Positions 23,028-40,554 of a DNA stretch of 64,000 nt are shown here, piece after piece. Positions within the stretch are counted from its first letter, which is position 1, and the number at the start of each line of letters is the position of its first letter. The notes below the pieces were generated by a model. It had not been told where the DNA came from. It saw only the letters and a list, made by a program, of their open reading frames with translations, and searched no databases. Source of the stretch: Sneathiellaceae bacterium (GTDB taxonomy: Bacteria; Pseudomonadota; Alphaproteobacteria; Ferrovibrionales; Ferrovibrionaceae); assembly GCA_040216765.1 (NCBI GenBank), contig JAVJON010000066.1, forward strand, positions 20,661-84,660, read 5' to 3'. A program made the translations under genes and the position numbers.

Positions 23028-23154
23028 ATCCTGCTCCTGTCACGCCCCAAACTCCGGGCAAGCCGGAGGTGGGCGCCGATCGATGCACTGCCGGAGGGCA
23101 GGTTCCCGGTGTCGCAGCTGAACGCCACGACACCGGGACCTGCGATGCCCTGTG

Positions 23155-25720: not shown

Positions 25721-25756
25721 GAGTTATAGAGTGCGTACCTAGGTAATGCAGTCGGG

Positions 25757-25784
25757 GCGGTTTCGCATTTTTTTTCGAAACCGC
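25757..25784 (+). terminator. 9-bp-stem hairpin with T-rich loop downstream of the PepSY gene
   Basis: GCGGTTTCG-CATTTTTTTT-CGAAACCGC read directly. The T run sits in the loop rather than after the stem, so it is not a textbook terminator. Confidence 0.3.
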
Positions 25785-25879
25785 TCCGACGAATACCGCA
25801 TTTCAGTCGATCCGGATCACTTTGATTGGGGTGCCGGGTCGTTCGGACAGAGTTCGACATCGGATATTTGGACCGCCTG

Positions 25880-26749
25880 CAGGTTCCGAGGCGCGATCAT
25901 CGCTTTTGCGCCTGTCATGCCGACCTCGCCAAGCGCGCCTGGCAAAAGATCGTTCTCCATCGTCAGCTGTCCGACCTTGGCGCCTTCGGCGGCTTTGTTC
26001 CGCTATTCCCATGACCGCAAGGGCAAGCATCCCCGCGCACATCTGGCCGGCTATGCTGGGATCCAGCAGGCAGATGCCTATGCCGGCTTCAACGAGCCCT
26101 CCAAACCGGAGCGGGCGCCGGGGCCGGTCCGGGAAGCCTGCTGCTGGGCGCATGCGCGGCAAAAATTCTTCAAACTGGCCGATATCAACCGCAAGGCAAA
26201 GGGTGGCAGGCCCGCTTCACCGCTGGCACTGGAGACAGTGCAGCGGTTCAATACCCTGTTCGACATCGAACGTGCCATCAACGGCCAAACGGCCGGGGAA
26301 CGGCCCAAGCCGCGCCAGGAGCAAGCGGCACCTCTGGTTGCCGAACTGCAGGCCTGGACGGGGGCCATCGCGGCCGGATGTCCCGTCACAGCAAGGCCGC
26401 AATGGCGATGGACTACATGCTGACCCGCTGGGCGGGGCTCAGCCGGATTCTCGAACACGGCCGGATCTGCCTGACCAACAATGTCGCCGAACGCGCATTG
26501 CGCGGCATCGCACCGGGTCGGAAGGCCCGGCTGTTCGCCGGCTCCGATCGCGGTGGCAAACGGGCCGCCTCCATGCACATCCTGATCGGCACAGCCAAGC
26601 TCAATGGTGTTGATCCACAAACCCGCCCACGCCGTGGCCGCCTGATCACCTACAGGACGGCGGTACTCACCGGAGGGTTCCGACTAAGCCAGGTGCACCA
26701 TCGCAACCTGGCAAAAGCGCTCGAAGAGCGTTGGCCCAGCCCCGACTGA
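25880..26749 (+). mobile_element. IS66-family transposase remnant (N-terminally truncated, at least one frameshift)
   Basis: FRYSHDRKGKHPRAHLAGYAGIQQADAYAGF...CWAHARQKFF in one frame. MSRHSKAAMAMDYMLTRWAGLSRILEHGRICLTNNVAERALRGIAPGRKARLFAGSDRGG...AKLNGVDPQ in another. No intact tnpA/tnpB and no clear IRs seen. Confidence 0.75.
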
Positions 26750-26791
26750 CCGGGCACAGAACGCCCCTCGCTTTCCCTGTCCGATTCCCAA

Positions 26792-27667
26792 TTATCCACG
26801 GCAACCATAGAAACCGCGATAGCCGACTCGAAGACCGGCGTCCAGTTCCAGCAGCAGATCGACTTCCTGCCGACCCGCCATCGGGTCCAACGCCGCTTCA
26901 CCCAAAGGCGGAGAAATACGCATTGCGATACCAATCGCCGCCAGTGTCAGTCCGTTCGCCGATCCAGCGGCATTGCCTGCATCGACTCGAACCAGGTCAC
27001 CGCTGAGCTTGACCAGTCCCGCTCCGTTTTCGCCGACGGCAAGAACCGGGGGGCTGTCCTCCGTATAGGTGAAGAAGCAGGCGGCGCCGTCGGGGAAGAG
27101 CCTGGCGACTTCGTCCGGCGTCATGAATTCCGGATCGAGAACTGCGACCTCGGCACTCGACAGCGCATCGGCCAGGGTTCCGACCTCTTTGGGCTCGCTT
27201 GCCCCGGATTCCGCGCCGTCGCCCGAGTCATCGATGCTGTCGATCAGATACCGCATCTCGGCGATTTCCTTGTCCTGCGCGAAGATGATTTCGTCAGCCA
27301 GCTTGCGCACCCGGGGGTCGGAAATATTCGCTCGGCTAGACGTCATGATGGCAATCGAATGATGCGGGATCATTGCACGCATGAAACTCGTGTCACCAAC
27401 GGTGACCTGGCTGCGGACCAGCCACAAGGATACACCGAAAGCCAGAAGGGCACCGGCAAAGATGGCGGCATTGAGCGTCTTGTTCGAATACATTGAGAGC
27501 ATGAACCCGAGCATGATCACCGCCATCGTCGCGCCCATGACCAAAGCCATGTAAAGACGGGTTTCCGAGAAAAAAACATGGGTCCACAAATATGTATTGA
27601 GGTACATCAATCCGAACATGACCACAGTGGACGTGAATATCATCGCGGCAAACCGGCCGTAAGCCAT
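26792..27667 (-). CDS. membrane DUF305-domain protein fused to an uncharacterised C-terminal domain
   Basis: 3-4 TM helices, then a DUF305-like half-domain (MIPHHSIAIMTS...DPRVRKLADEIIFAQDKEIAEM), then ~140 aa of unrecognised sequence. Start at the ATG at 27667. Confidence 0.7.
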   Translation of the reverse strand: MAYGRFAAMIFTSTVVMFGLMYLNTYLWTHVFFSETRLYMALVMGATMAVIMLGFMLSMYSNKTLNAAIFAGALLAFGVSLWLVRSQVTVGDTSFMRAMIPHHSIAIMTSSRANISDPRVRKLADEIIFAQDKEIAEMRYLIDSIDDSGDGAESGASEPKEVGTLADALSSAEVAVLDPEFMTPDEVARLFPDGAACFFTYTEDSPPVLAVGENGAGLVKLSGDLVRVDAGNAAGSANGLTLAAIGIAMRISPPLGEAALDPMAGRQEVDLLLELDAGLRVGYRGFYGCRG

Positions 27668-28166
27668 TCTGCCGCTCCCGTTTTTTGGTTCTTCGCTGTG
27701 GTTTGTCACGCCGTACCGACCTTTCACTTGACGCATTCGTATTACGTCATCAGATAACGCGCGTGCGCGACTTCCGGTTCCATAGCAGCGTTCAGCGGTC
27801 CTGGGGCCCCCACGATCCATCGACCGTCGAGTTTTTTGCCACGGGCCGTCGCGCATTCTCCCCCATACATGCATGTCCACAAAGACAGTGGGCTACGCGA
27901 CGACAGAAGACGTCGGAGGACCTCCACCGCACAGGGGCGTCACCACCCATTACACAGAAAACCTGCAACTCAAAAATAATATTGTTTAACCATATTGTTA
28001 TTAAACTGGCGCGATCGCATCATTCTTGCCCTATTTACTGCAGACATTTATTTGCGTATTATGGTTGCATCGACTGGCATCTGACCGGTGCATTGTTTCC
28101 GTCTCTCTCGCTATTCCCCCCTTCTGTGTAGTGGGACGGTTTCAGTAAGACGACGGGCCTCACCTC

Positions 28167-28808
28167 ATGAAAATATCCGACAGTTTCTCTGGTGCCGCTC
28201 TGTCTTTGGTGCAACGCAGGCGCAAAGTGGCGCTTCTTTTCATTGTCTTCGGAACCGTGTCTTGGGCTTTTCTTAACGATCACCATTTTCCAGGACGCAC
28301 TTATGAGCAAATCACCGGGACTGTTGGCATAGTTTTAATTGGAGTATGTGTTCTGGGTCGCGTCTGGTGCTCCTGGTTCATATCCGGAAGAAAGAAAAAG
28401 GAACTGGTTCAAGAAGGACCTTTTTCTATGTCAAGAAATCCATTGTATATGTTCTCTATCATCGGCGCATCCGGAGCGGGATTAACAGCCGGAAGTATTG
28501 TTCTGACTATATTAATCTTTTCAAGCGTTCTATTTGTATTCAACTCAGTTGTGACTCATGAAGAGAATTTTCTTTTAAATCAATTTGGCGATAAATATAT
28601 TTTATACTGCGCCACCGTCCCGAGATGGGGTATTCGTATGTCCAGTTTTTCTTTCTATGTAGAATATTTCACCAACAAACCAAATGGTAAATTGTTTTTG
28701 ATCTCGATCAGAGATTCATCTCTATTTCTCCTTTGTATTCCCCTATTCCGGGCCATCGATGAAGTCACGCACACCGGATTTTTTCGCCCTGTTTTCGCCC
28801 TGTATTAG
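28167..28808 (+). CDS. ICMT/PEMT-family membrane methyltransferase (CzcN/NccN-like)
   Basis: Multi-TM protein with the family motif ...LVQEGPFSMSRNPLYMF... Strikingly AT-rich codon usage compared with every neighbour. Confidence 0.7.
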   Translation: MKISDSFSGAALSLVQRRRKVALLFIVFGTVSWAFLNDHHFPGRTYEQITGTVGIVLIGVCVLGRVWCSWFISGRKKKELVQEGPFSMSRNPLYMFSIIGASGAGLTAGSIVLTILIFSSVLFVFNSVVTHEENFLLNQFGDKYILYCATVPRWGIRMSSFSFYVEYFTNKPNGKLFLISIRDSSLFLLCIPLFRAIDEVTHTGFFRPVFALY

Positions 28809-29036
28809 ACCCTGTGCCTAGAGCATGATCACCTGGGCCGGCAACATACCGTGAGTTACAGCATAACGTGAGTTGATGAGGTAGTTGTTGGTGGGAGTTG
28901 ATCCGGCAGCGTTCCGATGCACCATCAGAGTGCCTCGCGGTCGCGTTCCTGGACAGTCTCAGCAGATATCTGAGCTTGGCGAACAGCTGTTCGAATGGGT
29001 GTTCAGCCCCGGCATGTGGTAGATCCGAACTCCCGA

Positions 29037-29777
29037 TTAGCCAATTCGACCGAGGGCCGGGAACAGGTCCAGCATCCAGTAGGAGAACTCTGCAAGGCGG
29101 CCGGTCATCATGGCGAGCCCCATCAGCACGAGCACTCCTCCCGCCACCACCTGGAGCGCCGCGCCGAGCCGACGGACCCTCTTGAGTCTGACGGTCAGAC
29201 CGTCGGCGAAAATGGCGGTCGCGAGGAACGGCACGCCAAGGCCCATTGAGTAGATCGCGAGAAGCGCCACCCCATCGGCAACGCTCGCGCCCGTGGCACT
29301 GACCGTCAGGATAGCGCCAAGGATCGGGCCGATGCAGGGCGTCCAGCCAAACGCAAAGGCGAGGCCGAGGACGTAGGCATAGATCGGCCGCCCGCCAGGC
29401 AGATCCACATGATAGCGCCAGTCGCGCAGCAACCAGCCCGGCCGGAAGGCACCCATCATGACGATTCCGAAGGCCATCACCACGGCGCCTGCGATGAGAG
29501 ACAGTTCGTAGCTGTTGGCGATCAGCAACTGCCCCAGCGCCGTCGCGCTGGCGCCCAGGACAACGAATACCGTGGTGAACCCCAGCACGAAGTTTATGCT
29601 GAGCCCGATGGCCGGGAGCCGGGCCCGGAACGCACTGCCGCTTGCCGGCGCCTGGCCCGGCCCACCGGCGATGTAGGAAATGTATCCCGGGACGAGCGGC
29701 AGGACGCAGGGCGACAGGAACGAGACCGTTCCCGCGGCAAAAGCCGTGAGCAGGCCGACGTTTGACAGTTCAAACAT
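29037..29777 (-). CDS. ccdA: CcdA/DsbD-core thiol-disulfide electron-transfer membrane protein (ScsB-core-like)
   Basis: 246 aa, 6 TM helices, both conserved Cys motifs (FLSPCVLPLVP and GWTPCIGPILG). Confidence 0.85.
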   Translation of the reverse strand: MFELSNVGLLTAFAAGTVSFLSPCVLPLVPGYISYIAGGPGQAPASGSAFRARLPAIGLSINFVLGFTTVFVVLGASATALGQLLIANSYELSLIAGAVVMAFGIVMMGAFRPGWLLRDWRYHVDLPGGRPIYAYVLGLAFAFGWTPCIGPILGAILTVSATGASVADGVALLAIYSMGLGVPFLATAIFADGLTVRLKRVRRLGAALQVVAGGVLVLMGLAMMTGRLAEFSYWMLDLFPALGRIG

Positions 29778-29798
29778 GCAGGAGCCCGGCCACCGGCG

Positions 29799-30599
29799 TC
29801 ATTCCGGTGCCCGCGCTGCGGCGATCCTGGCCTGCAGCGTGGTCAAGTCGGTGGCACCGCGCAGGATCGCCTCGCCGATCACGAAACCGGGCGTGCCTGT
29901 GATTCTCAGTTTTCGGGCAAGCTCCATGTTGCGCTCGATCGACGCCGCAAGCTTCGGATCGCCCATATCCCGCTGCAGTCGATCGATATCGATGCCAAGG
30001 CTTTCAGCAAGAGCGAGCGCGGTGTCGCGGTCGATCCCACCGGTTTCCGCCATCATCGCCTTGTGGAAATCCACGTAGCGGCCCTGGCGCCGGGCGGCCA
30101 GTGCGGCCTTGGCGGCAAACTCGGAATCGGCGCCGAGGATCGGCAACTCCTTGTAAACGATGCGCAGGTTCGGATCTGCCGCCTCCGCCTCGATCATCAC
30201 CGGAGCGACCCGGCGACAGTATGGGCAGTTGTAGTCGAAGAACTCGACCAGTGTGACATCGCCATCCGGATTGCCGCCGACCGGATCGTCCGTTGCTTGC
30301 AGCAGCGCCTCGCCTTCCGCCGCAAGAGCCTGCCTGGCCGCGCGCTCCTGCTCGGCAAGCTGCCGTTGCTCCAGGCCTCTCATCGCTTCCACGATCACCT
30401 CTGGATGCTCCAGGAGATAGGCCCGAACCCGAGCGCCGAAATCGGTCTCGCCAATCGCCACCGCCCCCTCGCCCGCCGGCGTCTCCTGACGAAAGCCCGG
30501 ATCCAGGAGCAGCCAGGCGCCAATGCCGGCAACCGCGATCAGAAGCACTGCAAGCGCACCAACCAGACCGGACCGCCGGCTTCTATGTTCAACCTTCAT
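29799..30599 (-). CDS. membrane-anchored DsbA-family thioredoxin-fold protein, CPYC active site (ScsC-like)
   Basis: N-terminal anchor, a helical linker and a DsbA fold with FFDYNCPYCRR. Confidence 0.85.
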   Translation of the reverse strand: MKVEHRSRRSGLVGALAVLLIAVAGIGAWLLLDPGFRQETPAGEGAVAIGETDFGARVRAYLLEHPEVIVEAMRGLEQRQLAEQERAARQALAAEGEALLQATDDPVGGNPDGDVTLVEFFDYNCPYCRRVAPVMIEAEAADPNLRIVYKELPILGADSEFAAKAALAARRQGRYVDFHKAMMAETGGIDRDTALALAESLGIDIDRLQRDMGDPKLAASIERNMELARKLRITGTPGFVIGEAILRGATDLTTLQARIAAARAPE

Positions 30600-30671
30600 T
30601 TCCCTGCTCCGAATGGTTGATCGAATAACATGCAGCTACCGGCCGGCTTTCCAGATAACCCAGGTACATTT

Positions 30672-31466
30672 TCATGTATTTTCATCCCAGAGGAATTCAG
30701 TAATACGGTTCCACCAGCCCGGATTCTGGTTCTGCGATTGGCTGTGGGCATTATTCGCGACACCGTTCAGGTAAAGGACAAGATTGAGCGATTTGAATTC
30801 CACACCATGGAAATTCGCCGCCCAGGTCCCATCGGGACCGATCACATGGGTGACGGCGCCATGAATCTGCTGGCCGTCCGGTGTCGGGCTGAAACTGTGG
30901 CCAAAGGCTTCGGCGAGCTTCCGCGTCCTGCCTTCCAACGCCGGGTCGGTCGTGGCCAGGAAGCGCCAGTTCGCCGGATCCAATCCATGCGCGGGACCGA
31001 AAGCCTCGCGGACCTCCGCCGTGTCGTTGGACGGATCGGTCGAAACGCTCAGGAACTGCACGAGCTCCCGCATGGGGGTGTCATTCACCAGGGCCTGTAC
31101 TTCAGCGATCTTATCGGCATGCAAAGGACAGATGTCCGGGCAGGATGCATAAATGAAGTGTAAAACAATGAGTTTACCAGTATAGTCTGAAAGTCTTGCG
31201 AGTTTCCCTTGTGCGTCAGTAAGCTCGAAGCTCGGTGCCGGACGGCCGATGACCTGGAAATAAGGTTCCTTGTCCGCCATGACTTTGTCCAGATCGCCGC
31301 CGGGATGATTTGCAGCGACCGGCGTGACGGCGAGGAGAACTGGAACAAGGAAGAGACTTGCCGACAATAGGCGTGTGAATCCACGCGTTCCGGCCTGTTG
31401 CCGCCGACGCGATGGCAACCCGTTGACGATCATCATTGCCATGCCGTCACGCCTCCGGTTTTTCAT
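30672..31466 (-). CDS. SCO1/SenC-family copper chaperone / thiol-disulfide protein
   Basis: CxxxC motif (FIYASCPDICPLH), a downstream conserved His and a thioredoxin-like fold. Alternative start at 31442 (MAMMIV...) would remove the 20-nt overlap with the upstream gene. Confidence 0.85.
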   Translation of the reverse strand: MKNRRRDGMAMMIVNGLPSRRRQQAGTRGFTRLLSASLFLVPVLLAVTPVAANHPGGDLDKVMADKEPYFQVIGRPAPSFELTDAQGKLARLSDYTGKLIVLHFIYASCPDICPLHADKIAEVQALVNDTPMRELVQFLSVSTDPSNDTAEVREAFGPAHGLDPANWRFLATTDPALEGRTRKLAEAFGHSFSPTPDGQQIHGAVTHVIGPDGTWAANFHGVEFKSLNLVLYLNGVANNAHSQSQNQNPGWWNRITEFLWDENT

Positions 31467-31713
31467 CGTCCGGCGTCGATCTCGATCCGTGCAGGCCCTT
31501 GCACATGCACAGCCCGGCTCCGCACATTGCCAGGCAGGGCAGAACGCTGAGCAGGATCGGTGCGACCCCGATTGCGGACAGCCAGCCCCAGTTCAGCGCC
31601 ACCCCAACGCCGGCGGCGGCGAAACCGGACAGAAGCCATACCCGTCTGTCCCGCAGCCACAACCATCGAATCCGCCCGTAGGTCAAGTCGCTTGAAAGCA
31701 TAGGGTTGGTCAT
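31447..31713 (-). CDS. small 2-TM Cys-rich inner-membrane protein
   Basis: 88 aa with two hydrophobic helices and the cluster LPCLAMCGAGLCMCKG. Sits tightly between tlpA-like and SCO genes. No family recognised. Confidence 0.5.
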   Translation of the reverse strand: MTNPMLSSDLTYGRIRWLWLRDRRVWLLSGFAAAGVGVALNWGWLSAIGVAPILLSVLPCLAMCGAGLCMCKGLHGSRSTPDDEKPEA

Positions 31714-31716
31714 CCT

Positions 31717-32250
31717 CTAGTCCTCTTTGTCGCTCGACGTGACTATTCGCTCGAAGAAGGAAATCATCTCGGCCGTATCCCACTCGGCAGGCCCCACCAG
31801 GCGCGCAAGTTCGCGGCCTTGTCTGTCGATGAGCAGGGTGGCGGGCAGGCCAGGGATTCCCAGCGACCGCGCGGCCGTACCGCGCCTGTCGACGAGGATC
31901 TTCAGATGCTCGATGCCGGTATCGTCGTAGAACCGGCGGACGACGTCCGGGCCCGCCCGATCGATCGAGAGCGCCAGAACCTCGAATGCAGGGCCGCCGA
32001 GGCGCGCCTGCAGCCGATCCAGGGTCGGCATCTCCCTTCGGCAGGGGCCGCACCAGGTGGCCCAGACATTGAGCAGAATGACCTTGCCGCGCCAGGCAGA
32101 GAGATCGTGCCGCTTGCCCGCTTCGTCCTCGAAGGACATCTGCGGCACGTCCCGCGGCTCTGGATGCAGCTGCATGCCGACGGGGTCGGCAGCCCGGGCC
32201 TGAGGCACGACAAGCAGCATCGCGACCATGCCGACAATGAGGAACCGCAT
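31717..32250 (-). CDS. TlpA-family periplasmic thiol-disulfide oxidoreductase (ScsD-like)
   Basis: Signal peptide and NVWATWCGPCRREMP active site. Confidence 0.85.
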   Translation of the reverse strand: MRFLIVGMVAMLLVVPQARAADPVGMQLHPEPRDVPQMSFEDEAGKRHDLSAWRGKVILLNVWATWCGPCRREMPTLDRLQARLGGPAFEVLALSIDRAGPDVVRRFYDDTGIEHLKILVDRRGTAARSLGIPGLPATLLIDRQGRELARLVGPAEWDTAEMISFFERIVTSSDKED

Positions 32251-32254
32251 GGGT

Positions 32255-32854
32255 CTACTCCTTCGGCTCCGCGCGCAGGCGGGACAACAGGGGAAAGATC
32301 TGCTTGAAGACGAGGTCCTGCGTCAGCGGGCCGGCATGCCTGTAGGCAATCCTGCCGTCAGGGGCGACGATGTAGGTTTCCGGCACCCCATAAACTCCCC
32401 AGTCGATGGCGACCCGGCCATCGAGATCCGCCCCGGTGCGGGCATAGGGATCGCCGAGCCGGTCCAGGAAGGCAGCGGCTTCGGCGGGCTTGTCCTTGTA
32501 GTTGAGACCGAAGACGGGAACCGTGCCGCCGTTTGCCAGCCGCATCAGGATTGGGTGCTCGGCCCGACAGGGTATGCACCAGGAGGCGAATACATTGACC
32601 AGGGAAACCTGACCCTCCAGATGCGCACTGGACAGGCCCAGAGCCCTGCCTTGAACCGGCGGCAGGGAAAACTCCGGGACCGGCTCGCCGATCCGGGCGG
32701 ACGGCAGGGCCCTGGGATCGCGGTCGAGGCCCCAGGCCAGCGCGGCGGCAACAAGGGCGAAAACCGCGGCCGGGAGCAGGAAGCGCAATGCCATCCGGTC
32801 CCGCCGCTGTCGCGCGACGGTGCCGACCGCGTCAGCCATCCCGTCCTCCGGCAC
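32255..32854 (-). CDS. DsbE/CcmG-family thiol-disulfide oxidoreductase
   Basis: Membrane anchor, NVFASWCIPCRAEHP active site and the GVYGVPETY motif. The true start may be an internal ATG (32839 or 32794). Confidence 0.85.
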   Translation of the reverse strand: MPEDGMADAVGTVARQRRDRMALRFLLPAAVFALVAAALAWGLDRDPRALPSARIGEPVPEFSLPPVQGRALGLSSAHLEGQVSLVNVFASWCIPCRAEHPILMRLANGGTVPVFGLNYKDKPAEAAAFLDRLGDPYARTGADLDGRVAIDWGVYGVPETYIVAPDGRIAYRHAGPLTQDLVFKQIFPLLSRLRAEPKE

Positions 32855-32996
32855 CCGAACGGGCGAAGAGGTACTTGATCAGCGCCGCTGCGGCGAGAAT
32901 CAGGACCAGGACGACAAGCAGTCCGACAAGCCCCATTCCCCAACCCATCATCCCGCCCATCATGCAGTTCGTTCCATCCATCATGTCTTGCTCCAT
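32832..32996 (-). CDS. tiny Met-rich single-TM protein
   Basis: 54 aa: MEQDMMDGTNCMMGGMMGWGMGLVGLLVVLVLILAAAALIKYLF... Located in the copG/dsbE gap on the operon strand. Coding status is uncertain. Confidence 0.4.
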   Translation of the reverse strand: MEQDMMDGTNCMMGGMMGWGMGLVGLLVVLVLILAAAALIKYLFARSGAGGRDG

Positions 32997-33052
32997 CGGG
33001 CCGGTGGCGGCAGGGCGCCGCAGCCCGTTCAGTTGCTTCCGGGGACGCCCCG

Positions 33053-33493
33053 CTACTCCGTGGCATAGACCCGAGGCGTTTCGGCACCGATCTCGTAGAT
33101 CGTGAACGGTTCCGACTTCCTGCCGCCCATGCCGGGCGAGCCCGACGGCATGCCGGGCAAGGTCACGCCCTTGATGTCCGGCCTCTCGTCGAGGAGGCGG
33201 CGCACCGCCGCGATCGGGACATGACCGCTGACCGCATAGCCGTCGACGAACGCCAGGTGGCAGCCCTGGAAATCGTCGGGGATTCCCGCCTTCCGGCTCA
33301 TCACGACCAGATCGTGGGTTGGCTTGACGTCGACGGCGAAGCCGTTCTCCCGCAGGTAGTCGGCATAGTTCTCGCAGCAATCGCATTGCGGGTTCTTGTA
33401 GAGCGTGGCGCTTTCCTTCGGCTCGGCAGCGAGGAGCGGCGCCGAAATGGCAATACCGAGCCCGAAGGCGGCGATGGTCAGGAGCTTTCTCAT
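33053..33493 (-). CDS. copG: CopG-like DUF411 periplasmic copper-binding protein
   Basis: Signal peptide, CDCC motif (NPQCDCCENYADYL) and the conserved C-terminus GVTLPGMPSGSPGMGG. Start at the ATG at 33493. Confidence 0.85.
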   Translation of the reverse strand: MRKLLTIAAFGLGIAISAPLLAAEPKESATLYKNPQCDCCENYADYLRENGFAVDVKPTHDLVVMSRKAGIPDDFQGCHLAFVDGYAVSGHVPIAAVRRLLDERPDIKGVTLPGMPSGSPGMGGRKSEPFTIYEIGAETPRVYATE

Positions 33494-33519
33494 GAAATCA
33501 GTCCTTGTTGAGGGAAAGG

Positions 33520-34953
33520 TCAGGCGACGCGGATGACGCCCATCATCCCGGCCGCCTGGTGCTCGAGGATGTGGCAATGGAACATCCAGTCGCCCGGATT
33601 GTCGGCGACGAAGGCAATCTCGACCCGCTCCCGCGGGGCCATCAGGACGGTGTCCTGCCATTCGCGCCGGGCCGTCGGGGTGCCGTTTCGCGAGATCACC
33701 CGGAACGAATGGCCGTGCAGGTGGATCGGGTGAGGCCAGGCGGTCGCGTTCGTCATCGCGATCACATGCGATCCGTCGCGCCGCAATGTCAGGAACGGCT
33801 CCAGCACATGGCCATCGGCGGCCACACCGTTGACGAACCACATGCCGCCTGAGCGCATCATGTTCATCATCGAGCCCATCTGGCCGCCCATCTCCTGCAT
33901 GACCATCTGGCCCATCATCCCGCCGTTGAAGGTCACAGCGTGCCGTTCGGCATTGCCCAGGTCCGGTTCGGGCAGAGGATTGGGCGCCAGGGCGACCGCG
34001 CCTTCCGCCCGCGCCTCCCTGACCGGCTTGCCGTCATAGACGAACGCGGTCAGACGGTAGGCAAGACGCGGATAGAAGCGGTCGACAAGGTCGATCCGGT
34101 CGCCGGCGGTCCCGGTCATGTCGATGATCAGATCGGCCCGCATTGCCGGGCCGAGGACGACCAGGCCGTCCTGCGGTTCGTGCGAGGTGACCGGCTGCCC
34201 ATCCAGCGCGATGACCTGCGGCCGTAGCGCTGCGAAATCGAGACCGAAGATCCGCGCGTTGGCGGCATTGATCAGGCGCAGACGGATGCGCTCGCCCGGC
34301 CGTACCGACAATGGTTCCGGCATGCTGCCGTTGATGGTCAGGACGTTCCCGAACCTGCCGCCATGGCTCATGTCGTGACGGTTGCCGAAATCGTCACTGA
34401 TCTCGGCCGCCTCTGTCAGACGCCAGTCGTCGAGGATCCAGGTGATCTCGCGATCGACCTGCGGCGGCTGCGGTTCCTCGACGATGAGCGGACCATAAAG
34501 GCCGCGCCCAACCTGCTCGAAACTGCGCTGATGCGGGTGGTACCAGAACGTCCCGGCATCGACCGCGTCGAACTCATAGACGAAGCCCTCGCCCGGCCCG
34601 ATCGGCCGCTGCGTGAGATGCGGCACCCCGTCCATCGCGTTCGGGATCCGAAGGCCGTGCCAATGCACCGTAGTGTCTTCGGCAAGCCCGTTCTCGACAT
34701 GGATGCGGAGGCGCTGGCCCTGCCGGACCCTGATTTCCGGGCCGGGCAGACGATCGTTGAAACACCAGACTGCCGTCTTGCCGTAGGGCTGCGCAACCAG
34801 CTGGGCGGAGCCTTTCCCGGCACGCAACCGGACCTCCTGTACTGGCGCCGCCCCGGCCTGCGCGAGGCCTGGCAATGGCAGTAGAAGACCGGTAACTGCT
34901 GCTGCAGAGGACGCGAGGAACGAACGCCGCGTCGGCGTGATCGGACCGGACAT
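33520..34953 (-). CDS. Tat-exported three-domain multicopper oxidase
   Basis: Twin-arginine signal (TPTRRSFLASSAAAV) and Cu-ligand motifs HWHG, WYHPH, HPIHLHGH, HCHILEHQAAGMM. Confidence 0.9.
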   Translation of the reverse strand: MSGPITPTRRSFLASSAAAVTGLLLPLPGLAQAGAAPVQEVRLRAGKGSAQLVAQPYGKTAVWCFNDRLPGPEIRVRQGQRLRIHVENGLAEDTTVHWHGLRIPNAMDGVPHLTQRPIGPGEGFVYEFDAVDAGTFWYHPHQRSFEQVGRGLYGPLIVEEPQPPQVDREITWILDDWRLTEAAEISDDFGNRHDMSHGGRFGNVLTINGSMPEPLSVRPGERIRLRLINAANARIFGLDFAALRPQVIALDGQPVTSHEPQDGLVVLGPAMRADLIIDMTGTAGDRIDLVDRFYPRLAYRLTAFVYDGKPVREARAEGAVALAPNPLPEPDLGNAERHAVTFNGGMMGQMVMQEMGGQMGSMMNMMRSGGMWFVNGVAADGHVLEPFLTLRRDGSHVIAMTNATAWPHPIHLHGHSFRVISRNGTPTARREWQDTVLMAPRERVEIAFVADNPGDWMFHCHILEHQAAGMMGVIRVA

Positions 34954-35093
34954 GAGAGACTCTTCCTGGAAGCCGTGGTCCGCAGTCGCCCGGCGCTGCC
35001 CTGGGCATGCCTAGGGAGGCAACTGCACATGCCGCCGAGATCGATGCCTTCTCGGGGCCGAATGGAACACCGCCACCCGAATGGATCGCGGCG

Positions 35094-35432
35094 TCAGCTC
35101 AGGAAGGAAGGTCTCGGTGGATGCGGTTCGGGCGCCGTGGGAGCGCCGGTCAGCCAAAGGAAGCGGGCAGCGAAATGCCGCATCGGGGCTTGGGCAAAGG
35201 GCGTGGCCATATCGGCCATCACGCCCTGCGCCGGGACCGTGCAACTGAAGTCGCAGGCAAGCCTGTCGCCGTCTTCCCCGCTCGCGCAAGCGTCGCAACC
35301 GCTCATCGAAACGGCATCGGCGGGGGCACAATTGTCTCCGGAGCCGCTCGCCATCGTCGTGGCTTCGGCGGATGCCGTCACCAGGAACAGGGCGACTACG
35401 ACACTGGCGACTATGCTAAGAACGCGCTTCAT
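35094..35432 (-). CDS. small exported C-x3-C / Pro-tail protein (DUF2946-like, tentative), first gene of the MCO-copG-redox operon
   Basis: 112 aa: signal peptide MKRVLSIVASVVVALFLVTASA, an Asp/Cys-rich middle (SGCDACASGEDGDRLACDFSCTVPAQG) and the tail FLWLTGAPTAPEPHPPRPSFLS. Confidence 0.6.
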   Translation of the reverse strand: MKRVLSIVASVVVALFLVTASAEATTMASGSGDNCAPADAVSMSGCDACASGEDGDRLACDFSCTVPAQGVMADMATPFAQAPMRHFAARFLWLTGAPTAPEPHPPRPSFLS

Positions 35433-35681
35433 GGCGAAGTCAGACTAGTCTTGCGGCGGGGCCGCGTCGATTGCCATTCTGCCGCAGTGCACTTGATTGT
35501 GAAGGTGACGAGACCCCCGATGCGGACGCAGCATCGTTGAGTGCGCCGCACCGAAAGATGCCGCGCTCGTGGGACCTCGGATCGCGGATGAACCACCGGC
35601 CGGACCTGGCGCCACGAACCGCCGCAACCGGCCCCTTGCTCCGGCGCAGTTCATCGGCTAATAGAGGCGCCCGCGTGGCGA

Positions 35682-35758
35682 CGGAGTGTAGCTCAGCCTG
35701 GTAGAGCACTGTCTTCGGGAGGCAGGGGCCGGTGGTTCGAATCCACTCACTCCGACCA
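35682..35758 (+). tRNA. tRNA-Pro (anticodon CGG)
   Basis: Manual cloverleaf. Acceptor CGGAGTG/CACTCCG. D-arm GCTCAGCCTGGTAGAGC. Anticodon stem CTGTC/GGCAG with loop TTCGGGA (CGG). T-arm GGTGG-TTCGAAT-CCACT. Discriminator A and encoded CCA. Confidence 0.9.
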
Positions 35759-37386: not shown

Positions 37387-37418
37387 TTGACTCCGTACTA
37401 TGGTACGGCCTCTAGCAT
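37387..37418 (+). promoter_or_regulatory. mer-type promoter/operator: -35 TTGACT, 19-20 bp spacer holding the dyad CCGTAC-N4-GTACGG, -10-like TAGCAT
   Basis: TTGACTCCGTACTATGGTACGGCCTCTAGCAT read directly. The Tn501/Tn21 merOP, as I recall it, is TTGACTCCGTACATGAGTACGGAAGTAAGGT. GGAGG lies at 37424-37428 and the ATG at 37436. Confidence 0.65.
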
Positions 37419-37435
37419 GCCCTGGAGGCCATGAC

Positions 37436-38104
37436 ATGAAACGCACAACCATCGGTCGCGCAGCAGCATTGACCCGGGTCAATGTAGAGACCATCCGCTT
37501 CTATGAACGACGCGGCCTGATCGCGCAGCCGCCGCGCCCCACCGATGGCGGGTCGCGGGACTATGGCCGGGAGGTCATCGACCGGATCCTGTTCATCCGC
37601 CAGGCACAGGATATCGGTTTCTCGCTGCGCGAGGTTGCGGACCTGCTGGCGCTGCGCAACGAACCCGGCGCCGATTGCGCGGAGATCCGCGTGCGCACCC
37701 AGGCCAAACGCGACGAGGTCCAGGCCAAACTCGGGCATCTGACGCGGTTGCGCGATGCGCTGGACCTGTTGATCGCCAACTGCCCGGGCAAAGGTGCGCT
37801 CGACGCCTGCACAATCCTGGAAGCCATGGCACACCGGTCTGGAACCTCCGCGAAACATCGGGAACAGAGCATGGAAACCACGACCCTGAAGATCGAGGGC
37901 ATGCATTGCCATGCCTGCGCCCGGACGGTCCAGGCGGTGCTGCAGCGGGCGACAGGTGTGCTTCGGGCGGAGGCGTCGTTCGACAAGCGACAAGCCCGGA
38001 TCCTGCACGATCCGCAGAAAGCCGGCGCGGCGGAGCTGGCGGCCCTGATCGAGAACTGCGGCTACGCGGTCGAGATTCTTCCACCCCAGGCCAATGCACC
38101 GTGA
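37436..38104 (+). CDS. merR: MerR-family metalloregulator (Hg-type Cys triad) fused to a C-terminal HMA (MerP/CopZ-like) domain
   Basis: [18 protein letters not shown] (MerR has [15 protein letters not shown]). Cys81, Cys116 and Cys125 have the same spacing as MerR Cys82/117/126. From aa 146 the sequence [18 protein letters not shown]... is an HMA fold. Confidence 0.85.
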
Positions 38105-40554
38105 CCGCGACCGCTCCACTTGCCGATGGACTGCGGCCCCTATGGCCGGCAGAACCGGGCGGACGGCCGGACCGGGCACGGCTGCGCGCGCGGATCGGCG
38201 GTCTGCATTGCTCGCTCTGCACCGGCACCATCGAGAAGGCTCTTGGCCGCCAGGCGGGTGTCCATCGCGTCTCTGTCAGCCTGACGCATGAGCAGGCGCT
38301 GATCGAGTTCGACCCGCGGGCGGCGAACCCCGAGGCGTTGCTGCGCATCCTGCAGGACATCGGCTACACCATCCACGACCCGAACAAGCTGCGCCCCTTT
38401 GATGAAGAGGAGCGCGAACTGGTCCTGGAGGGGCGGCGCTTCCTGATCGCGACGATCTGCAGCCTGCTGTCGATCGCGCTGATCACGGAGCCGGGCGGGC
38501 CCCTGTCCATTGTTCTGCCCGGATTGGCGACAGCCAGCCTGACGGCCTTCGTGTTCCTGGTCCTGCGGGCCAGGGGCGTGCTGCCGGCCCTGGCCGGTGC
38601 GGCCTGCCTGGGCGCGTCGGCGACCGGCCTGCTGCTGCTGGCCGGCGGCGGGCATCTCAGTGTCTTCGCGCCATGGCTGACCGGCGCCCTCGCCGCGATT
38701 CTGGTGTTCGGTGTCGCCCGGCACATCCTGTTCATGGCAGCCCAGGCCCTGCGCCGTGGCATCCTCAACCAGCATGTCCTGCTGGAGGCCGGCGCGATGG
38801 CGGGCATCGTCGGGGGCCTGATCGGCCTGGCGCTGGACCGGCCCGGCTATCCGACCGCCCCGTTCTTTGCTGTGGCTACGATGGTCGTCACCTATCACAT
38901 CTTCTCGGAATGGCTGTCGCTGATCGTCAAGACCCGCTCGTCGCAGTCGGTCAAGCGTCTGCTCGACCTGCAGCCCGACACCGCCCATCTGCTGAGGCAG
39001 GGGACGGAACAGGTTGTACCGGTCCGCGACCTCGCCATTGGCGATCTGCTGCGCGTCCGGCCGGGCGAGCGCATCCCGGTCGACGGCACGATCACCGAGG
39101 GGCGTTCCGCCGTCGACCGGTCGCTGGTGACCGGCGAACCGATACCCGTTGCCTGCCGGACCGGCGACTCGGTGATCGGCGGCACGGTGAACGGCACCGG
39201 AAGCCTGGTGGTGCGCGCCGACAGCATCGGGCAGGACAGCTTCCTGCAGCGCGTCGCCCGGGAAATCGAGCATGCGCGTGCGCTGAAGCCGGGCCTGCTG
39301 CATCTCGTCGACAGGGTGCTCCGCATATACACCCCCACGGTGCTGACTATTGCCCTTCTCGCCTTTGCGGGCTGGGCGGCCCTGCCACTGCTTCTCGGCC
39401 TGGCGCCGGACCTGAAACGGGCCGTTTTCGCCAGCCTGAGCGTGCTGGTGATGGGCTATCCCTGCGCGGTCGGGATCTCGGCGCCGCTATCGATCGTCCG
39501 CGGCGCCGGCGAGGCGGCGGAGAAGGGCATCCTGATGCGCACCGGCGAGGCCTTTCAGGGATACCGCCTAGTGCGGCAGATCGCCTTCGACAAAACCGGA
39601 ACATTGACCGAGGGCCGGCCGAAGCTCCACGAGGTCGAGTCCTGTACCGGCGATCGCGAGGAACTGCTGGCCCTGGCCGCGGCAGCCGAGGCTGCCTCTG
39701 AGCATCCGCTCGCCCGCGCGGTGATCGAGGCCTGTTTCGAGGCCGGCCTGACGCCGCCGGCGGTCGACGGCTTCGAGGCCCTTCCCGGGGAAGGGATCAG
39801 GGCGCATGTCGCTGCGGCCGAGATCCTGATCGGTCGCCCCGATCTCATGCAGGCGCATGGCATCGCCGTTCCGGACCGGCTGCGTCGTCGTGTCGAGGTG
39901 CTCCAGGACCGGGGACGAACGGTGATCCTTGTGGCGCGCGAGGGCATGCTGCTGGGGCTGCTGGCCCTTGGCGACAGTTTGCGCCGGGACGCACAGGAGA
40001 CTGTCGAAAGGCTGCGCACCGGCGGCATCCGGCCGATTCTGATCACAGGCGACAACCGGCGAGCCGCCGACCGCCTGGCACGTGAACTCGGCATCGATGA
40101 GGTCCATGCGAACGTTCTGCCCGGGCAGAAGGCCGCACTGATCCGTGATCTCCAGGCTGGCGGCCGGACAGCCATGGTCGGCGACGGAATCAACGATGCA
40201 CCCGCTCTCATGCAGGCGGATATCGGCATCGCCATGGGCTCGGGCACCGACATCGCGATCGATTCCGCCGACATCATCATCCTCAACGACCGGCTCGCCA
40301 GTATCCCTGCGGCGCAGGAAATCAGCCGCAGCGGCTACCGCAAGATGCTCCAGAACATCTCGCTGGCCTTCCTGTTCAACGGCATCGGTGTGCCGCTGGC
40401 GGCGACCGGGCTGGTCTATCCGGTGTGGGCCATGGTCGCCATGGCTGCCAGCGTGACGGCAATCTTCGTCAATTCGCTCTGGCGGCGCCCCGGGCTGTTT
40501 CTCGACGCGATCGGAAGTGTCGGCGCTCCGGCGATCGGGAGCGGTCCCGCTTGA
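38101..40554 (+). CDS. P1B-type heavy-metal-translocating ATPase with one N-terminal HMA domain and an atypical TM4 motif YPC
   Basis: [10 protein letters not shown] (HMA), [29 protein letters not shown]4 reads [12 protein letters not shown] instead of CPC/CPH/SPC. The GTG start at 38101 overlaps the merR stop (GTGA). Confidence 0.9.

What the first reader, a model, noticed from the sequence alone, without database searches (positions are those of the whole stretch)
29037..35432. Ten-gene operon coupling a multicopper oxidase/CopG pair to a complete Scs-like thiol-disulfide relay plus SCO1
The genes are co-oriented on the minus strand with very short gaps or overlaps. The order is leader, Tat-MCO, CopG(DUF411, CDCC), a tiny Met-rich TM peptide, DsbE/CcmG-like (WCIPC), TlpA-like (WCGPC), a Cys-rich 2-TM protein, SCO1 (CPDIC), anchored DsbA-like (CPYC) and CcdA. 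CcdA plus a CPYC-DsbA plus TlpA is the logic of the Salmonella, Proteus and Caulobacter Scs (suppressor of copper sensitivity) system. Here it is fused into one transcription unit with Cu oxidation (MCO and CopG) and a Cu chaperone (SCO). Two thioredoxin-like reductases appear instead of one. This suggests an integrated periplasmic unit that detoxifies Cu(I) and repairs mis-oxidised cysteines, and I have not seen it described as a unit.
Basis: partly seen in the sequence, partly recalled or inferred. Interest (0 to 1): 0.65.

Follow-up and report, generated by a model that had tools for sequence, protein, structure and literature searches.

The report
Extended cutFOG copper operon with thiol relay
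This is a real ten-gene copper-stress operon, widespread in Alphaproteobacteria, that joins the known copper-sensing cutF-cutO-cutG module to a CcdA-fed set of periplasmic thiol reductases, a Sco copper chaperone and two unannotated small membrane proteins; the parts are familiar but I found no paper describing the combination.

Summary
The block is not a chance arrangement. About 74 of 80 genome loci fetched through the small Cys-rich membrane protein carry at least part of the same co-oriented block. These loci are mostly Rhodobacterales, Rhodospirillales and Hyphomicrobiales, often on conjugative plasmids.

Genes 1-3 are the known Rhodobacter capsulatus cutFOG module. The "leader" is a CutF-type exported copper-sensing peptide with a Sec signal, CxxC and CxxxC motifs, and a PEPHPPR tail. 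[quoted passage not shown]

The conserved downstream core is TlpA, the Cys-rich 2-TM protein, Sco and CcdA, usually with CcmG/DsbE and a c-type cytochrome. The ScsC-like DsbA is a true ScsC homologue, but it is the least conserved member and there is no ScsB. "Complete Scs-like relay" therefore overstates the case.

The most likely function is copper-induced Cu(I) oxidation combined with a CcdA-driven reducing branch. That branch would keep cysteine-based copper sites, apocytochrome c and damaged periplasmic proteins reduced.

I rate this a new variant of a known kind, of moderate interest.

The parts
35476..35503 (-). Promoter-like site (TTCACA, 16 nt spacer, CAGAAT), about 45 nt upstream of the g1 start codon
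   Evidence: This is a consensus scan match only. In the sister module L066, RNA contigs begin 46 nt upstream of, to 65 nt inside, the leader ORF. Function here is inferred.
35094..35432 (-). g1: CutF-like exported copper-sensing peptide of 112 aa. It has an N-terminal hydrophobic signal, C46xxC49, C60xxxC64 and the C-terminal tail PEPHPPRPSFLS.
   Evidence: ORF. An equivalent ORF lies upstream of the MCO in 62 of 63 related loci. The invariant residues are CxxC, C and PxPP(R/K). R. capsulatus CutF is 118 aa with C69xxxC73 and P109EPEGPPPRL118 (PMC8456105). There is no Pfam DUF2946 hit.
35095..35106 (-). Anti-SD arm: the last codons of g1 plus part of its stop codon (CUUCCUG-AGCUG)
   Evidence: In the MFE and centroid folds this arm pairs with the SD arm at 34962-34975 (z = -2.05). 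The equivalent pairing is present in related loci with different sequences. Cognate arm pairs average -14.3 kcal/mol and non-cognate pairs -10.4, and 0 of 5000 permutations reached the observed value.
34962..34975 (-). SD arm (CGGCU-UC-CAGGAAG), containing the Shine-Dalgarno sequence of the MCO gene, 8 nt upstream of its ATG
33520..34953 (-). g2: Tat-exported multicopper oxidase (CutO/CueO type) of 477 aa with a Met-rich insert
   Evidence: Pfam Cu-oxidase_3, _2 and Cu-oxidase. It scores below the CopA and CueO equivalog cut-offs. It has a TRRSFL twin-arginine motif. It is 71% identical to the MCO of a Thalassobaculum plasmid.
33053..33493 (-). g3: CopG/CutG (DUF411) with a Sec-type signal, the C37xC39C40 motif and the MPSGSPGM motif
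   Evidence: PF04214, 79.9 bits. It aligns to P. aeruginosa CopG (6WIS) at E 3.9e-19 with CxCC conserved.
32832..32996 (-). g4: conserved micro-protein of 50-54 aa. It has a Met-rich N-terminus, one TM helix and an AALIKYL tail. Function is unknown; it is presumably a membrane-anchored Cu(I)-binding peptide.
   Evidence: ORF. It was called as a gene in L003-L005. It is 64% identical to the Thalassobaculum homologue. A strict motif search found the same ORF after DUF411 in at least 56 of 76 loci.
32255..32854 (-). g5: membrane-anchored CcmG/DsbE paralogue with WCIPC and GVYGVPETY motifs
   Evidence: TIGR00385, 169 bits against a cut-off of 123. The best solved relatives are B. japonicum CcmG/CycY (1KNG, 9e-41), and Pseudomonas and E. 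coli CcmG.
31717..32250 (-). g6: TlpA-type periplasmic thioredoxin with WCGPC
   Evidence: Its best NCBIfam match is rhizobial TlpA, at 150 bits, below the equivalog cut-off of 230. The best solved relatives are B. japonicum TlpA 1JFU and 4TXO (3.5e-34).
31447..31713 (-). g7: 88-aa two-helix membrane protein with an invariant RR...LNWxWL...PCxxMCxxGLC motif. It belongs to an unannotated family.
   Evidence: No Pfam or NCBIfam hit. The family has 1118 clusters at 50% identity. Some members carry CC or YHS-like tails. It lies immediately upstream of Sco in almost all loci, and it stands alone beside MerR or cus genes in six loci. The AlphaFold model is helical but of low confidence.
30672..31466 (-). 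g8: membrane-anchored SCO1/SenC copper chaperone with C109PDIC113 and the conserved His
   Evidence: PF02630, 59.5 bits. It aligns to bacterial and human Sco structures, including B. japonicum ScoI, with the CxxxC motif and the 'IHG' His aligned.
29799..30599 (-). g9: membrane-anchored ScsC-type DsbA with C125PYC128 and an N-terminal ScsC trimerisation-helix domain
   Evidence: PF18312 ScsC_N, 43.8 bits, plus DSBA. Solved relatives are 3GYK at 7.6e-48, Caulobacter ScsC 7RGV at 1.2e-45 over residues 53-264, Proteus ScsC 4XVW at 1e-29, and Salmonella ScsC 4GXZ at 7e-17.
29037..29777 (-). g10: CcdA, a minimal DsbD-family membrane electron transporter with six hydrophobic segments and Cys24 and Cys148 in SPC and TPC motifs
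   Evidence: PF02683, 48.6 bits. It is 59% identical to the CcdA of the Thalassobaculum plasmid.

Best explanation
This is a copper-stress operon made of two joined modules.

**Module 1 (g1-g3) works like R. capsulatus cutFOG.** The CutF-like peptide is exported co-translationally. When periplasmic Cu binds its cysteines, the ribosome pauses on the PEPHPPR tail. The paused ribosome sits on the last codons of g1, which otherwise pair with the Shine-Dalgarno sequence of the oxidase gene. Pausing therefore frees that site, and the Tat-exported multicopper oxidase and CopG are made and oxidise or handle Cu(I).

**Module 2 (g4-g10) is a reducing branch.** CcdA carries electrons from cytoplasmic thioredoxin across the membrane to three anchored thioredoxin-fold proteins.
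- The TlpA-like protein keeps the CxxxC site of the co-encoded Sco reduced, and probably other Cys-based Cu sites such as that of CopG.
- The CcmG paralogue keeps CxxCH sites of apocytochromes c reduced. Cytochrome c assembly is a process known to be poisoned by periplasmic copper.
- The ScsC-type protein reshuffles copper-catalysed wrong disulfides and binds Cu(I).
- The Met-rich g4 and the Cys-motif g7 are membrane Cu(I)-binding accessories. g7 is tightly linked to Sco.

**Shown here:** gene content, family assignments, conservation of the order, the co-varying anti-SD/SD pairing, and RNA coverage bounded by the block in a sister module.

**Inferred:** copper induction, all electron-transfer partners, and the roles of g4 and g7.
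For: -
- The order is conserved. The dominant block is [CutF]-MCO-DUF411-[tiny]-cyt c-DsbE-TlpA-C2-Sco-h159-CcdA. The window-type form, without cyt c and with ScsC in place of h159, occurs in Ferrovibrio, Mesorhizobium, a sister strain, and in partial form on an Aquibium plasmid.
- CutF features are present in 62 of 63 loci. The anti-SD/SD pairing is conserved with different sequences; cognate pairs average -14.3 kcal/mol, non-cognate -10.4, and 0 of 5000 permutations reached the observed value.
- PP(R/K) lies 1-5 codons before the stop codon (3 or 5 in all but one locus), so a paused ribosome would cover the anti-SD arm.
- The published CutF mechanism is in PMC9973294, PMC8456105 and bioRxiv 10.1101/2025.02.05.636593.
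- TlpA reduces ScoI and CoxB in B. japonicum (PMC7558416).
- Cytochrome c assembly is a key periplasmic target of copper (PMC4600104, title and abstract only).
- ScsC proteins are copper-binding isomerases, and TlpA and CcmG types are partners of DsbD-family transporters (PMC10907172).
- In five RNA or probable-RNA runs the sister module L066 is covered from the leader start to the ccdA end, with zero depth in the flanks and with contigs crossing gene junctions.
- The neighbourhood is a copper island: a MerR-HMA regulator, a P1B-ATPase, copAB, a cupredoxin and DUF305.
Against: - There are no expression or copper-induction data for the window itself.
- The leader does not reach Pfam DUF2946, and it has PP rather than the PPP of R. 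capsulatus CutF.
- The fold z-score for the window spacer alone is modest (-2.05).
- No MerR/CueR-type operator was seen on visual reading of the region upstream of g1; no search was run.
- CcdA reducing an ScsC-type DsbA has no precedent that I found. Known ScsC proteins use ScsB.
- The window lacks the cytochrome c gene that accompanies DsbE in most relatives, so the CcmG paralogue has no in-operon substrate here.
- RNA contig depths in the sister module are uneven. They are low over DUF411, and new contigs start just before the cytochrome c gene. Internal promoters or processing therefore cannot be excluded.
Confidence: 0.6

Rival explanations
1. This is a cuproenzyme assembly line rather than detoxification and repair. 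TlpA, Sco (and Cox11 in one variant), CcmG, the cytochrome c and CcdA would exist to metallate and mature a specific respiratory or oxidase complex, or the co-encoded multicopper oxidase itself, when copper is available. The MCO and CopG would serve as copper suppliers or redox adjusters.
For: TlpA to ScoI to CoxB is the established CuA assembly route (PMC7558416). One variant locus (L006) adds Cox11/CtaG and a Rieske protein inside the block. Most relatives encode a c-type cytochrome next to the CcmG paralogue. CutO is reported to be metallated via the CopA efflux route, by an unknown periplasmic chaperone (PMC8456105).
Against: No oxidase structural genes (coxA/B, ccoNOQP, nosZ) lie in or beside the block in any of the roughly 80 loci. 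The neighbours are resistance genes: a P1B-ATPase with MerR, copAB, cusCBA and DUF305. The block also travels on conjugative plasmids together with other metal-resistance genes.
Confidence: 0.2
2. This is a thiol-based Cu(I) capture and transmembrane relay. The two unannotated membrane proteins (g4 Met-rich, g7 PCxxMCxxGLC) and Sco would move Cu(I) between periplasm and cytoplasm, in the way MerT, MerF and MerP do for mercury. CcdA and TlpA would serve only to recharge the cysteines.
For: g7 is invariably next to Sco. It also occurs alone beside MerR regulators or cus genes. Family members carry cytoplasmic CC or YHS-like tails. The motif lies within a transmembrane helix.
Against: The evidence is entirely contextual. 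There is no homology to Mer transporters or to any solved protein. The structure model is of low confidence (pLDDT 61). This reading does not explain the CcmG or ScsC members.
Confidence: 0.12
3. This is merely a neighbourhood of independently transcribed copper and redox genes with no functional coupling.
For: The g8-g9 gap of 72 nt and the g3-g4 gap of about 60 nt could hold promoters. RNA contig depth in the sister module is uneven.
Against: The genes show strict co-orientation, overlapping or 3-26 nt junctions, and conserved order across three alphaproteobacterial orders and on plasmids. No terminator-like sites lie inside the block. RNA contigs cross the junctions and stop at the block's ends.
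Confidence: 0.05

Closest known systems
Rhodobacter capsulatus cutFOG operon (CutF nascent-chain copper sensor, CutO multicopper oxidase, CutG/CopG)
   Same: The first three genes have the same order. The leader is of similar size (112 against 118 aa) and has a Sec signal, a CxxxC motif and a PEP..PPR C-terminus. A stem hides the oxidase Shine-Dalgarno sequence. The oxidase is Tat-exported, and a DUF411 partner with CxCC follows it.
   Different: The tail here has PP rather than PPP, and there is an extra CxxC. Here the 5' arm of the stem lies within the last codons and stop codon of the leader. The published stem-loop is described as lying in the cutF-cutO intergenic region; how it compares in detail was not checked. 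DUF411 carries a Sec-type rather than a Tat signal. Most importantly, seven further co-oriented genes follow. In R. capsulatus the operon is described as tricistronic, followed by two hypothetical genes (PMC8456105).
Scs (suppressor of copper sensitivity) system of Salmonella, Proteus and Caulobacter
   Same: Both link copper to a periplasmic thiol-redox system. g9 is a true ScsC homologue with the N-terminal trimerisation domain seen in Proteus and Caulobacter ScsC. Membrane-anchored TlpA/CcmG-like proteins resemble ScsD. A DsbD-family membrane protein supplies electrons.
   Different: There is no ScsB, whose large periplasmic alpha and gamma domains define it; there is only a minimal CcdA. 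No ScsA is recognisable. ScsC is absent from most relatives of the block. The system is fused to MCO/CopG and Sco, which Scs loci lack.
Bradyrhizobium japonicum TlpA-ScoI (CuA assembly) and CcmG/CycY (cytochrome c maturation) reducing pathways
   Same: g6 and g5 have B. japonicum TlpA and CcmG as their closest solved relatives. g8 is a Sco with an intact CxxxC plus His site. The TlpA-Sco pairing is the most conserved part of the block.
   Different: These are extra copies placed in a copper-resistance island, not next to cox or ccm genes. g6 scores below the TlpA equivalog cut-off. An unannotated Cys-motif membrane protein sits between TlpA and Sco.
Corynebacterium glutamicum CopRS regulon (copO multicopper oxidase with a tlpA-like thioredoxin gene, cg3281-cg3289)
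   Same: This is a copper-induced cluster that contains a multicopper oxidase and, as I recall, a TlpA-like thiol:disulfide protein (PMC3140484; I saw only the title, abstract and term counts).
   Different: It belongs to an unrelated lineage and uses a different regulator (a two-component system). From what I recall it has no CutF leader, CopG, Sco, CcdA or ScsC in a single operon. I did not read the paper in full.

Membership tests
cutFOG / CutF-type translational copper sensor | Small ORF immediately upstream of the MCO gene, encoding a protein with a cleavable Sec signal peptide | tested here: met
   A 112-aa ORF ends 140 nt before the MCO start. It has an N-terminal hydrophobic segment at residues 1-29 followed by AEA. 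This is a heuristic check only, without a dedicated signal-peptide predictor.
cutFOG / CutF-type translational copper sensor | Cys-containing metal-binding motif (CxxxC) in the mature part | tested here: met
   The window protein has C60DFSC64 plus C46DAC49. CxxC and the first Cys of CxxxC are invariant in 14 diverse leaders, and the second Cys is conserved in at least 90%.
cutFOG / CutF-type translational copper sensor | C-terminal proline-rich arrest-like motif (R. capsulatus PEPEGPPPRL) | tested here: met
   The window has PEPHPPRPSFLS. The consensus in 62 of 63 loci is (D/E)PxPP(R/K). It is PP, not PPP, so arrest strength is untested.
cutFOG / CutF-type translational copper sensor | [quoted passage not shown] | tested here: met
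   Window positions 35095-35106 pair with 34962-34975. The pairing is kept with different sequences in 15 divergent representatives, and 0 of 5000 permutations reached the observed energy.
cutFOG / CutF-type translational copper sensor | Sequence membership in Pfam DUF2946 (PF11162), the family CutF is assigned to | tested here: not met
   There is no PF11162 hit at E up to 1 for the window leader or for two relatives. None of 47 relatives carries a precomputed Pfam domain. The authors note that CutF-like proteins were gathered iteratively and only loosely match this HMM.
cutFOG / CutF-type translational copper sensor | Copper-dependent ribosome stalling and Cu-dependent MCO synthesis | not testable with these tools
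   This needs in vivo or in vitro translation assays.
Scs system | ScsC: periplasmic DsbA-fold protein with CxxC, with an N-terminal trimerisation helix in the Proteus and Caulobacter forms | tested here: met
   PF18312 scores 43.8 bits against a cut-off of 25.8, with DSBA and a CPYC motif. 7RGV matches at E 1.2e-45 over residues 53-264.
Scs system | ScsB: DsbD-class transporter with a large periplasmic N-terminal (alpha) domain and a C-terminal thioredoxin (gamma) domain | tested here: not met
   g10 is 246 aa, consisting of six hydrophobic segments only. It matches only the TM domain of DsbD and TsoB models. No other DsbD-like gene lies in the operon. A second TM-only DsbD_2 gene lies at 40425-41276.
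Scs system | ScsD: membrane-anchored TlpA/CcmG-like thioredoxin | tested here: met
   Two such proteins are present, g5 and g6.
Scs system | ScsA: small membrane protein with CxxC | not tested
   No ScsA model or sequence was at hand. g7 is a small Cys-motif membrane protein, but its homology to ScsA was not examined.
TlpA-Sco (CuA assembly) pathway | TlpA-type thioredoxin equivalent to B. japonicum TlpA | tested here: inconclusive
   The best NCBIfam hit is NF047696 TlpA, at 150 bits, below the equivalog cut-off of 230. The best solved relatives are 1JFU and 4TXO at E 3.5e-34.
TlpA-Sco (CuA assembly) pathway | Sco with CxxxC plus a His copper site | tested here: met
   CPDIC and the aligned His are present. 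PF02630 scores 59.5 bits.
TlpA-Sco (CuA assembly) pathway | Genetic or functional link to a CuA or haem-copper oxidase | tested here: not met
   tblastn and called genes showed no oxidase subunit genes in the window block or in the related loci. Only one variant (L006) carries Cox11.
CcmG/DsbE (cytochrome c maturation) | DsbE-family HMM above cut-off, with WCxPC and GVxGxPET motifs | tested here: met
   TIGR00385 scores 169 bits against a cut-off of 123. WCIPC and GVYGVPETY are present. 1KNG matches at E 9e-41.
CcmG/DsbE (cytochrome c maturation) | Embedded in a ccm operon or next to a cytochrome c substrate | tested here: not met
   The window has no ccm genes and no cytochrome c gene in the block. 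Most relatives have a mono-haem cytochrome c gene directly upstream of DsbE.
CcdA | DsbD_TM domain with six TM helices and two conserved Cys in TM1 and TM4 | tested here: met
   PF02683 scores 48.6 bits against a cut-off of 27.1. Cys24 is in the SPCVLP motif and Cys148 in the TPCIGP motif. There are six hydrophobic segments.
CopG (DUF411) | DUF411 domain with CxCC and a Met-containing copper-cluster motif | tested here: met
   PF04214 scores 79.9 bits. CDCC and MPSGSPGM align with 6WIS.

The most novel reading that the evidence does not exclude
The two conserved, unannotated small membrane proteins may form, with Sco, a previously unrecognised membrane-embedded Cu(I) relay. These are the Met-rich g4 and the PCxxMCxxGLC protein g7, whose family has about 1100 clusters and no Pfam entry. 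Such a relay would be a copper counterpart of MerT/MerF. Its cysteines would be recharged by TlpA and CcdA, making the operon a self-contained thiol-based copper-handling machine rather than an assortment of known parts.
Probability: 0.15. Interest if true: 0.7.

Novelty: new variant of a known kind. Interest (0 to 1): 0.5.

Why it matters
How periplasmic copper damage to cysteines and to cytochrome c maturation is countered outside the enterobacterial Scs and Dsb systems is poorly known. This block shows that many Alphaproteobacteria, often marine and often on conjugative plasmids, carry one portable unit with three functions. These are a CutF-type copper sensor, Cu(I) oxidation, and a dedicated CcdA-fed reducing branch with Sco.

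It offers three things to experimenters. First, it is a natural test bed for CutF-type translational control beyond R. capsulatus. Second, it predicts new CcdA partners: TlpA acting on Sco, a CcmG paralogue and an ScsC. Third, it points to three conserved proteins of unknown function (g4, g7, and the h159 protein of relatives) that are now directly testable for roles in copper handling.

Tried and rejected
- Pfam and NCBIfam gave nothing for g1, g4 and g7, even at E up to 1. Pfam on ten long members of the g7 family gave only one weak YHS hit.
- The AlphaFold model of g7 had low confidence (pLDDT 61), so I did not run a fold search.
- I first read the contig breaks at 29022 and about 35700 in runs X1-X3 as evidence that the block moves as a unit. 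I rejected this. The sister strain L092 has the same upstream flank. The 29022 break reflects a roughly 10.7-kb insertion in the window, and the 35700 break is an assembly break at tRNA-Pro.
- No RNA runs were found for the window's own sequence, so I used a sister module instead.
- On visual reading of the upstream sequence I saw no MerR/CueR-type operator with a 19-20 bp spacer upstream of g1. The repeat finder failed on a strand argument and I did not repeat it.
- Rfam found only the tRNA.
- Eight literature searches found no description of the extended unit. The library lacks most subscription journals, so absence is not proof.

Full report
**Observation**

- Pfam and NCBIfam confirm a three-domain multicopper oxidase (MCO) with a twin-arginine signal.
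- They also confirm a DUF411/CopG protein with a CDCC motif.
- The DsbE-family protein scores 169 bits on TIGR00385, above its cut-off of 123.
- The TlpA-like thioredoxin has rhizobial TlpA as its best model, but below the equivalog cut-off.
- The remaining confirmed members are a SCO1/SenC protein, a DsbA-fold protein that also carries the ScsC N-terminal domain (PF18312), and a DsbD_TM/CcdA protein.
- Three products have no family hit: the 112-aa "leader", a 50-54-aa Met-rich single-TM peptide, and an 88-aa Cys-rich two-helix protein.

Each thioredoxin-fold protein has exactly the two active-site cysteines and one N-terminal hydrophobic anchor or signal. CcdA has six hydrophobic segments and its two conserved cysteines. 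Junctions are overlaps or gaps of 3-72 nt, except for the 140-nt leader-MCO spacer. The consensus scan found no terminator-like site on the coding strand inside the block, and it found one promoter-like site just upstream of the leader.

**Closest solved relatives**

| Gene | Closest solved structures |
|---|---|
| g9 | Caulobacter ScsC (7RGV, E 1e-45), aligned through the N-terminal helix; also Proteus and Salmonella ScsC |
| g6 | B. japonicum TlpA (1JFU and 4TXO, 3.5e-34) |
| g5 | B. japonicum CcmG/CycY (1KNG, 9e-41) and other CcmG proteins |
| g8 | Bacterial, human and B. japonicum Sco proteins, with CxxxC and His aligned |
| g3 | P. aeruginosa CopG (6WIS), with CxCC and the Met motif conserved |

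g5 also carries the WCxPC and GVxGxPET motifs.

**Conservation of the unit**

A megablast against plasmids found the MCO-DUF411 pair on about 100 alphaproteobacterial plasmids. Annotated regions of a Thalassobaculum plasmid and of Roseovarius mucosus pSMR3-1 show the same co-oriented block. In both, a c-type cytochrome follows the small peptide and an unannotated roughly 160-aa membrane protein ("h159") takes the place of the ScsC-like gene.

Exact-protein look-ups located the window's source (a MAG) and an identical order in Ferrovibrio sp. They also found an expanded variant that adds Cox11 and a Rieske protein.

A genome scan with an alignment of the Cys-rich protein found relatives in 463 species genomes, and 80 loci were fetched. 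I annotated these by tblastn with the window proteins and extra references.
- At least 38 loci carry MCO-DUF411-cyt c-DsbE-TlpA-C2-Sco-h159-CcdA.
- About 74 loci carry at least part of the block.
- Six loci have the Cys-rich gene alone, beside a MerR regulator or cus genes.

The window-type form lacks the cytochrome c and has ScsC instead of h159. It recurs in Ferrovibrio, Mesorhizobium qingshengii, Mesorhizobium sp. 65-26 and a sister strain. An Aquibium oceanicum conjugative plasmid lists most of the same genes, though not the MCO or DsbE. Stappia has both the cytochrome c and ScsC.

The most conserved core is TlpA-C2-Sco-CcdA behind MCO-DUF411.

**The "leader" is a CutF-type sensor**

In R. 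capsulatus, cutFOG encodes three products. CutF is 118 aa with a Sec signal, C69xxxC73 and P109EPEGPPPRL118. CutO is the multicopper oxidase, and CutG is the CopG homologue. Copper binding to nascent, exported CutF prolongs ribosome pausing on the proline motif. This melts a stem-loop that hides the cutO Shine-Dalgarno (SD) sequence (PMC8456105, PMC9973294, bioRxiv 10.1101/2025.02.05.636593).

The window leader has the same layout: a hydrophobic N-terminus, C46xxC49, C60xxxC64 and the tail PEPHPPRPSFLS. An equivalent ORF precedes the MCO in 62 of 63 related loci. Its invariant features are the CxxC motif, the first Cys of CxxxC (the second is conserved in at least 90%) and a (D/E)PxPP(R/K) tail.

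Folding the spacer pairs the last codons and stop codon of the leader (35095-35106) with the SD region of the MCO gene (34962-34975). The same long-range pairing appears in other lineages with quite different sequences. Examples are CGCTCATCTGAT with ATCAGATGAGAGCG, ACATCCTGAT with ATCAGGATG, and CTGCCTGTCTGAA with TTCAGATCAAGGCAG.

Among 15 divergent representatives, cognate arm pairs average -14.3 kcal/mol and non-cognate pairs -10.4. None of 5000 permutations reached the observed mean. The PP(R/K) codons lie 1-5 codons before the stop codon, 3 or 5 in all but one locus. A ribosome paused there would therefore cover the anti-SD arm.

The leader does not hit Pfam DUF2946. It works like CutF, but HMM-level membership was not shown. 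Rfam has no family in this region apart from the neighbouring tRNA.

**Transcription**

No RNA data exist for the window sequence itself. For the near-identical Rhodobacterales sister module (L066), contigs from five RNA or probable-RNA runs show a consistent pattern. They begin between 46 nt upstream of and 65 nt inside the leader ORF. They end near or within about 700 nt after the end of ccdA. In the flanks the depth is zero, and single contigs cross the MCO-DUF411, cyt c-DsbE-TlpA and TlpA-C2-Sco-h159-CcdA junctions.

Depth is uneven. It is low over DUF411, and new contigs begin just before the cytochrome c gene. Internal promoters or processing therefore remain possible. Contigs carry no strand information and may include DNA. 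This supports a transcribed block bounded by the operon's ends, but it does not prove a single transcript.

**Context**

- A tRNA-Pro(CGG) gene lies 250 nt upstream of the leader.
- Beyond it lie a methyltransferase-like gene, an MBL-fold gene, a MerR regulator with a fused HMA domain, a P1B-ATPase and a second TM-only DsbD-family gene.
- Downstream of ccdA the window has a roughly 10.7-kb lower-GC insertion. It carries a resolvase, copB, a CopA-type oxidase, a cupredoxin, IS66-like fragments, DUF305 and a PEMT-like gene.
- This insertion is absent from a sister strain, where ccdA abuts a phosphorylase gene.

**Mechanism**

My best explanation has confidence about 0.6.

The first module is a CutF-controlled Cu(I)-oxidising unit. 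The second is a CcdA-fed reducing branch. In that branch, TlpA would keep Sco and other cysteine-based copper sites reduced; this step is known from B. japonicum CuA assembly. The CcmG paralogue would protect cytochrome c maturation, which is a documented periplasmic target of copper (PMC4600104, title and abstract only). ScsC would repair or prevent wrong disulfides and bind Cu(I) (PMC10907172). All partner assignments are inferences from family knowledge and gene linkage.

The rivals are three. The first is a cuproenzyme assembly line (0.2), supported by the Cox11-containing variant but opposed by the complete absence of oxidase genes and by the resistance-gene neighbourhood. The second is a membrane Cu(I) relay built around g4, g7 and Sco (0.12). 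The third is unlinked neighbours (0.05).

**Comparison and novelty**

Genes 1-3 are a new member of the cutFOG kind. The Scs analogy holds for ScsC and the ScsD-like proteins. It fails for ScsB, and ScsC is the least conserved member. The TlpA-Sco and CcmG pathways are the closer functional models for the core.

Within the searchable literature I found no description of the extended unit. I therefore rate it a new variant of a known kind. It is of moderate interest because it is widespread, portable, and contains three conserved proteins of unknown function.

Noticed in passing
window 35682-35758 (+): A tRNA-Pro(CGG) gene lies 250 nt upstream of the operon's first start codon, on the opposite strand. 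Assembly graphs of several public runs break exactly here.
   Followed up: partly
window ~18300-29020: This is a roughly 10.7-kb lower-GC insertion (GC 0.56-0.63 against about 0.70) relative to a sister strain (L092), where ccdA directly abuts the phosphorylase gene. It carries a resolvase (18917-19732), CopB (20271-21005), a CopA-type multicopper oxidase (21009-23027), a cupredoxin (23155-23733), IS66-like ORF fragments (about 25.7-26.7 kb), DUF305 (26792-27880) and a PEMT/ICMT-like methyltransferase (28167-28808).
   Followed up: partly
window 40425-41276 (+): A second TM-only DsbD-family protein (DsbD_TM plus DsbD_2, with a CPAC motif) lies immediately downstream of the P1B-ATPase. Relatives sit between MerR and the ATPase on the Thalassobaculum plasmid and in other loci. 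It is possibly another membrane thiol or metal carrier of the copper island.
   Followed up: partly
window 41376-42447 (+): ORF 42130-42447 matches only the C-terminal half of DUF411, so it is a second CopG that is truncated or frameshifted. The preceding ORF 41376-42068 is a Cys/His-rich exported-looking protein (GSCCAVGC) with no Pfam hit.
   Followed up: no
window 37400-38104 (+): A MerR-family regulator has a fused C-terminal HMA metal-binding domain and is translationally coupled to the P1B-ATPase gene.
   Followed up: no
window 31447-31713 (-) and loci L054, L058, L073, L082, L086, L045: The Cys-rich 2-TM protein belongs to a sizeable unannotated family: 1118 clusters at 50% identity, no Pfam entry, and an invariant PCxxMCxxGLC motif. 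The family also occurs alone, directly upstream of MerR regulators or beside cusCBA genes. Some members have duplicated modules, C-terminal CC motifs or a weak YHS domain.
   Followed up: partly
L001 6214-6693 (-), L002 5513-6004 (-), and most of L012-L091: A conserved roughly 160-aa multi-TM protein with no Pfam family ('h159') occupies the position directly upstream of ccdA that ScsC holds in the window. Its function is unknown.
   Followed up: no
L006 8001-14700: An expanded variant of the block (GCA_973903545.1) lacks DUF411. It adds a third redoxin, Cox11/CtaG, a Rieske protein and further small ORFs between TlpA and CcdA.
   Followed up: no
L017, L052, L055, L056 (upstream of the MCO): In several sister loci a divergent pair sits next to a MerR regulator just upstream of the operon. 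The pair is a DsbA-like gene plus a Sco- or redoxin-like gene, each 27-43% identical to g9 or g8. A DsbA-type function may therefore be supplied from outside the block where ScsC is missing.
   Followed up: no
L066 2450-3570: RNA contig depth in the sister module drops over DUF411. New contigs start at 3417-3567, just before the cytochrome c gene, in four runs. This may indicate an internal promoter or processing site.
   Followed up: partly
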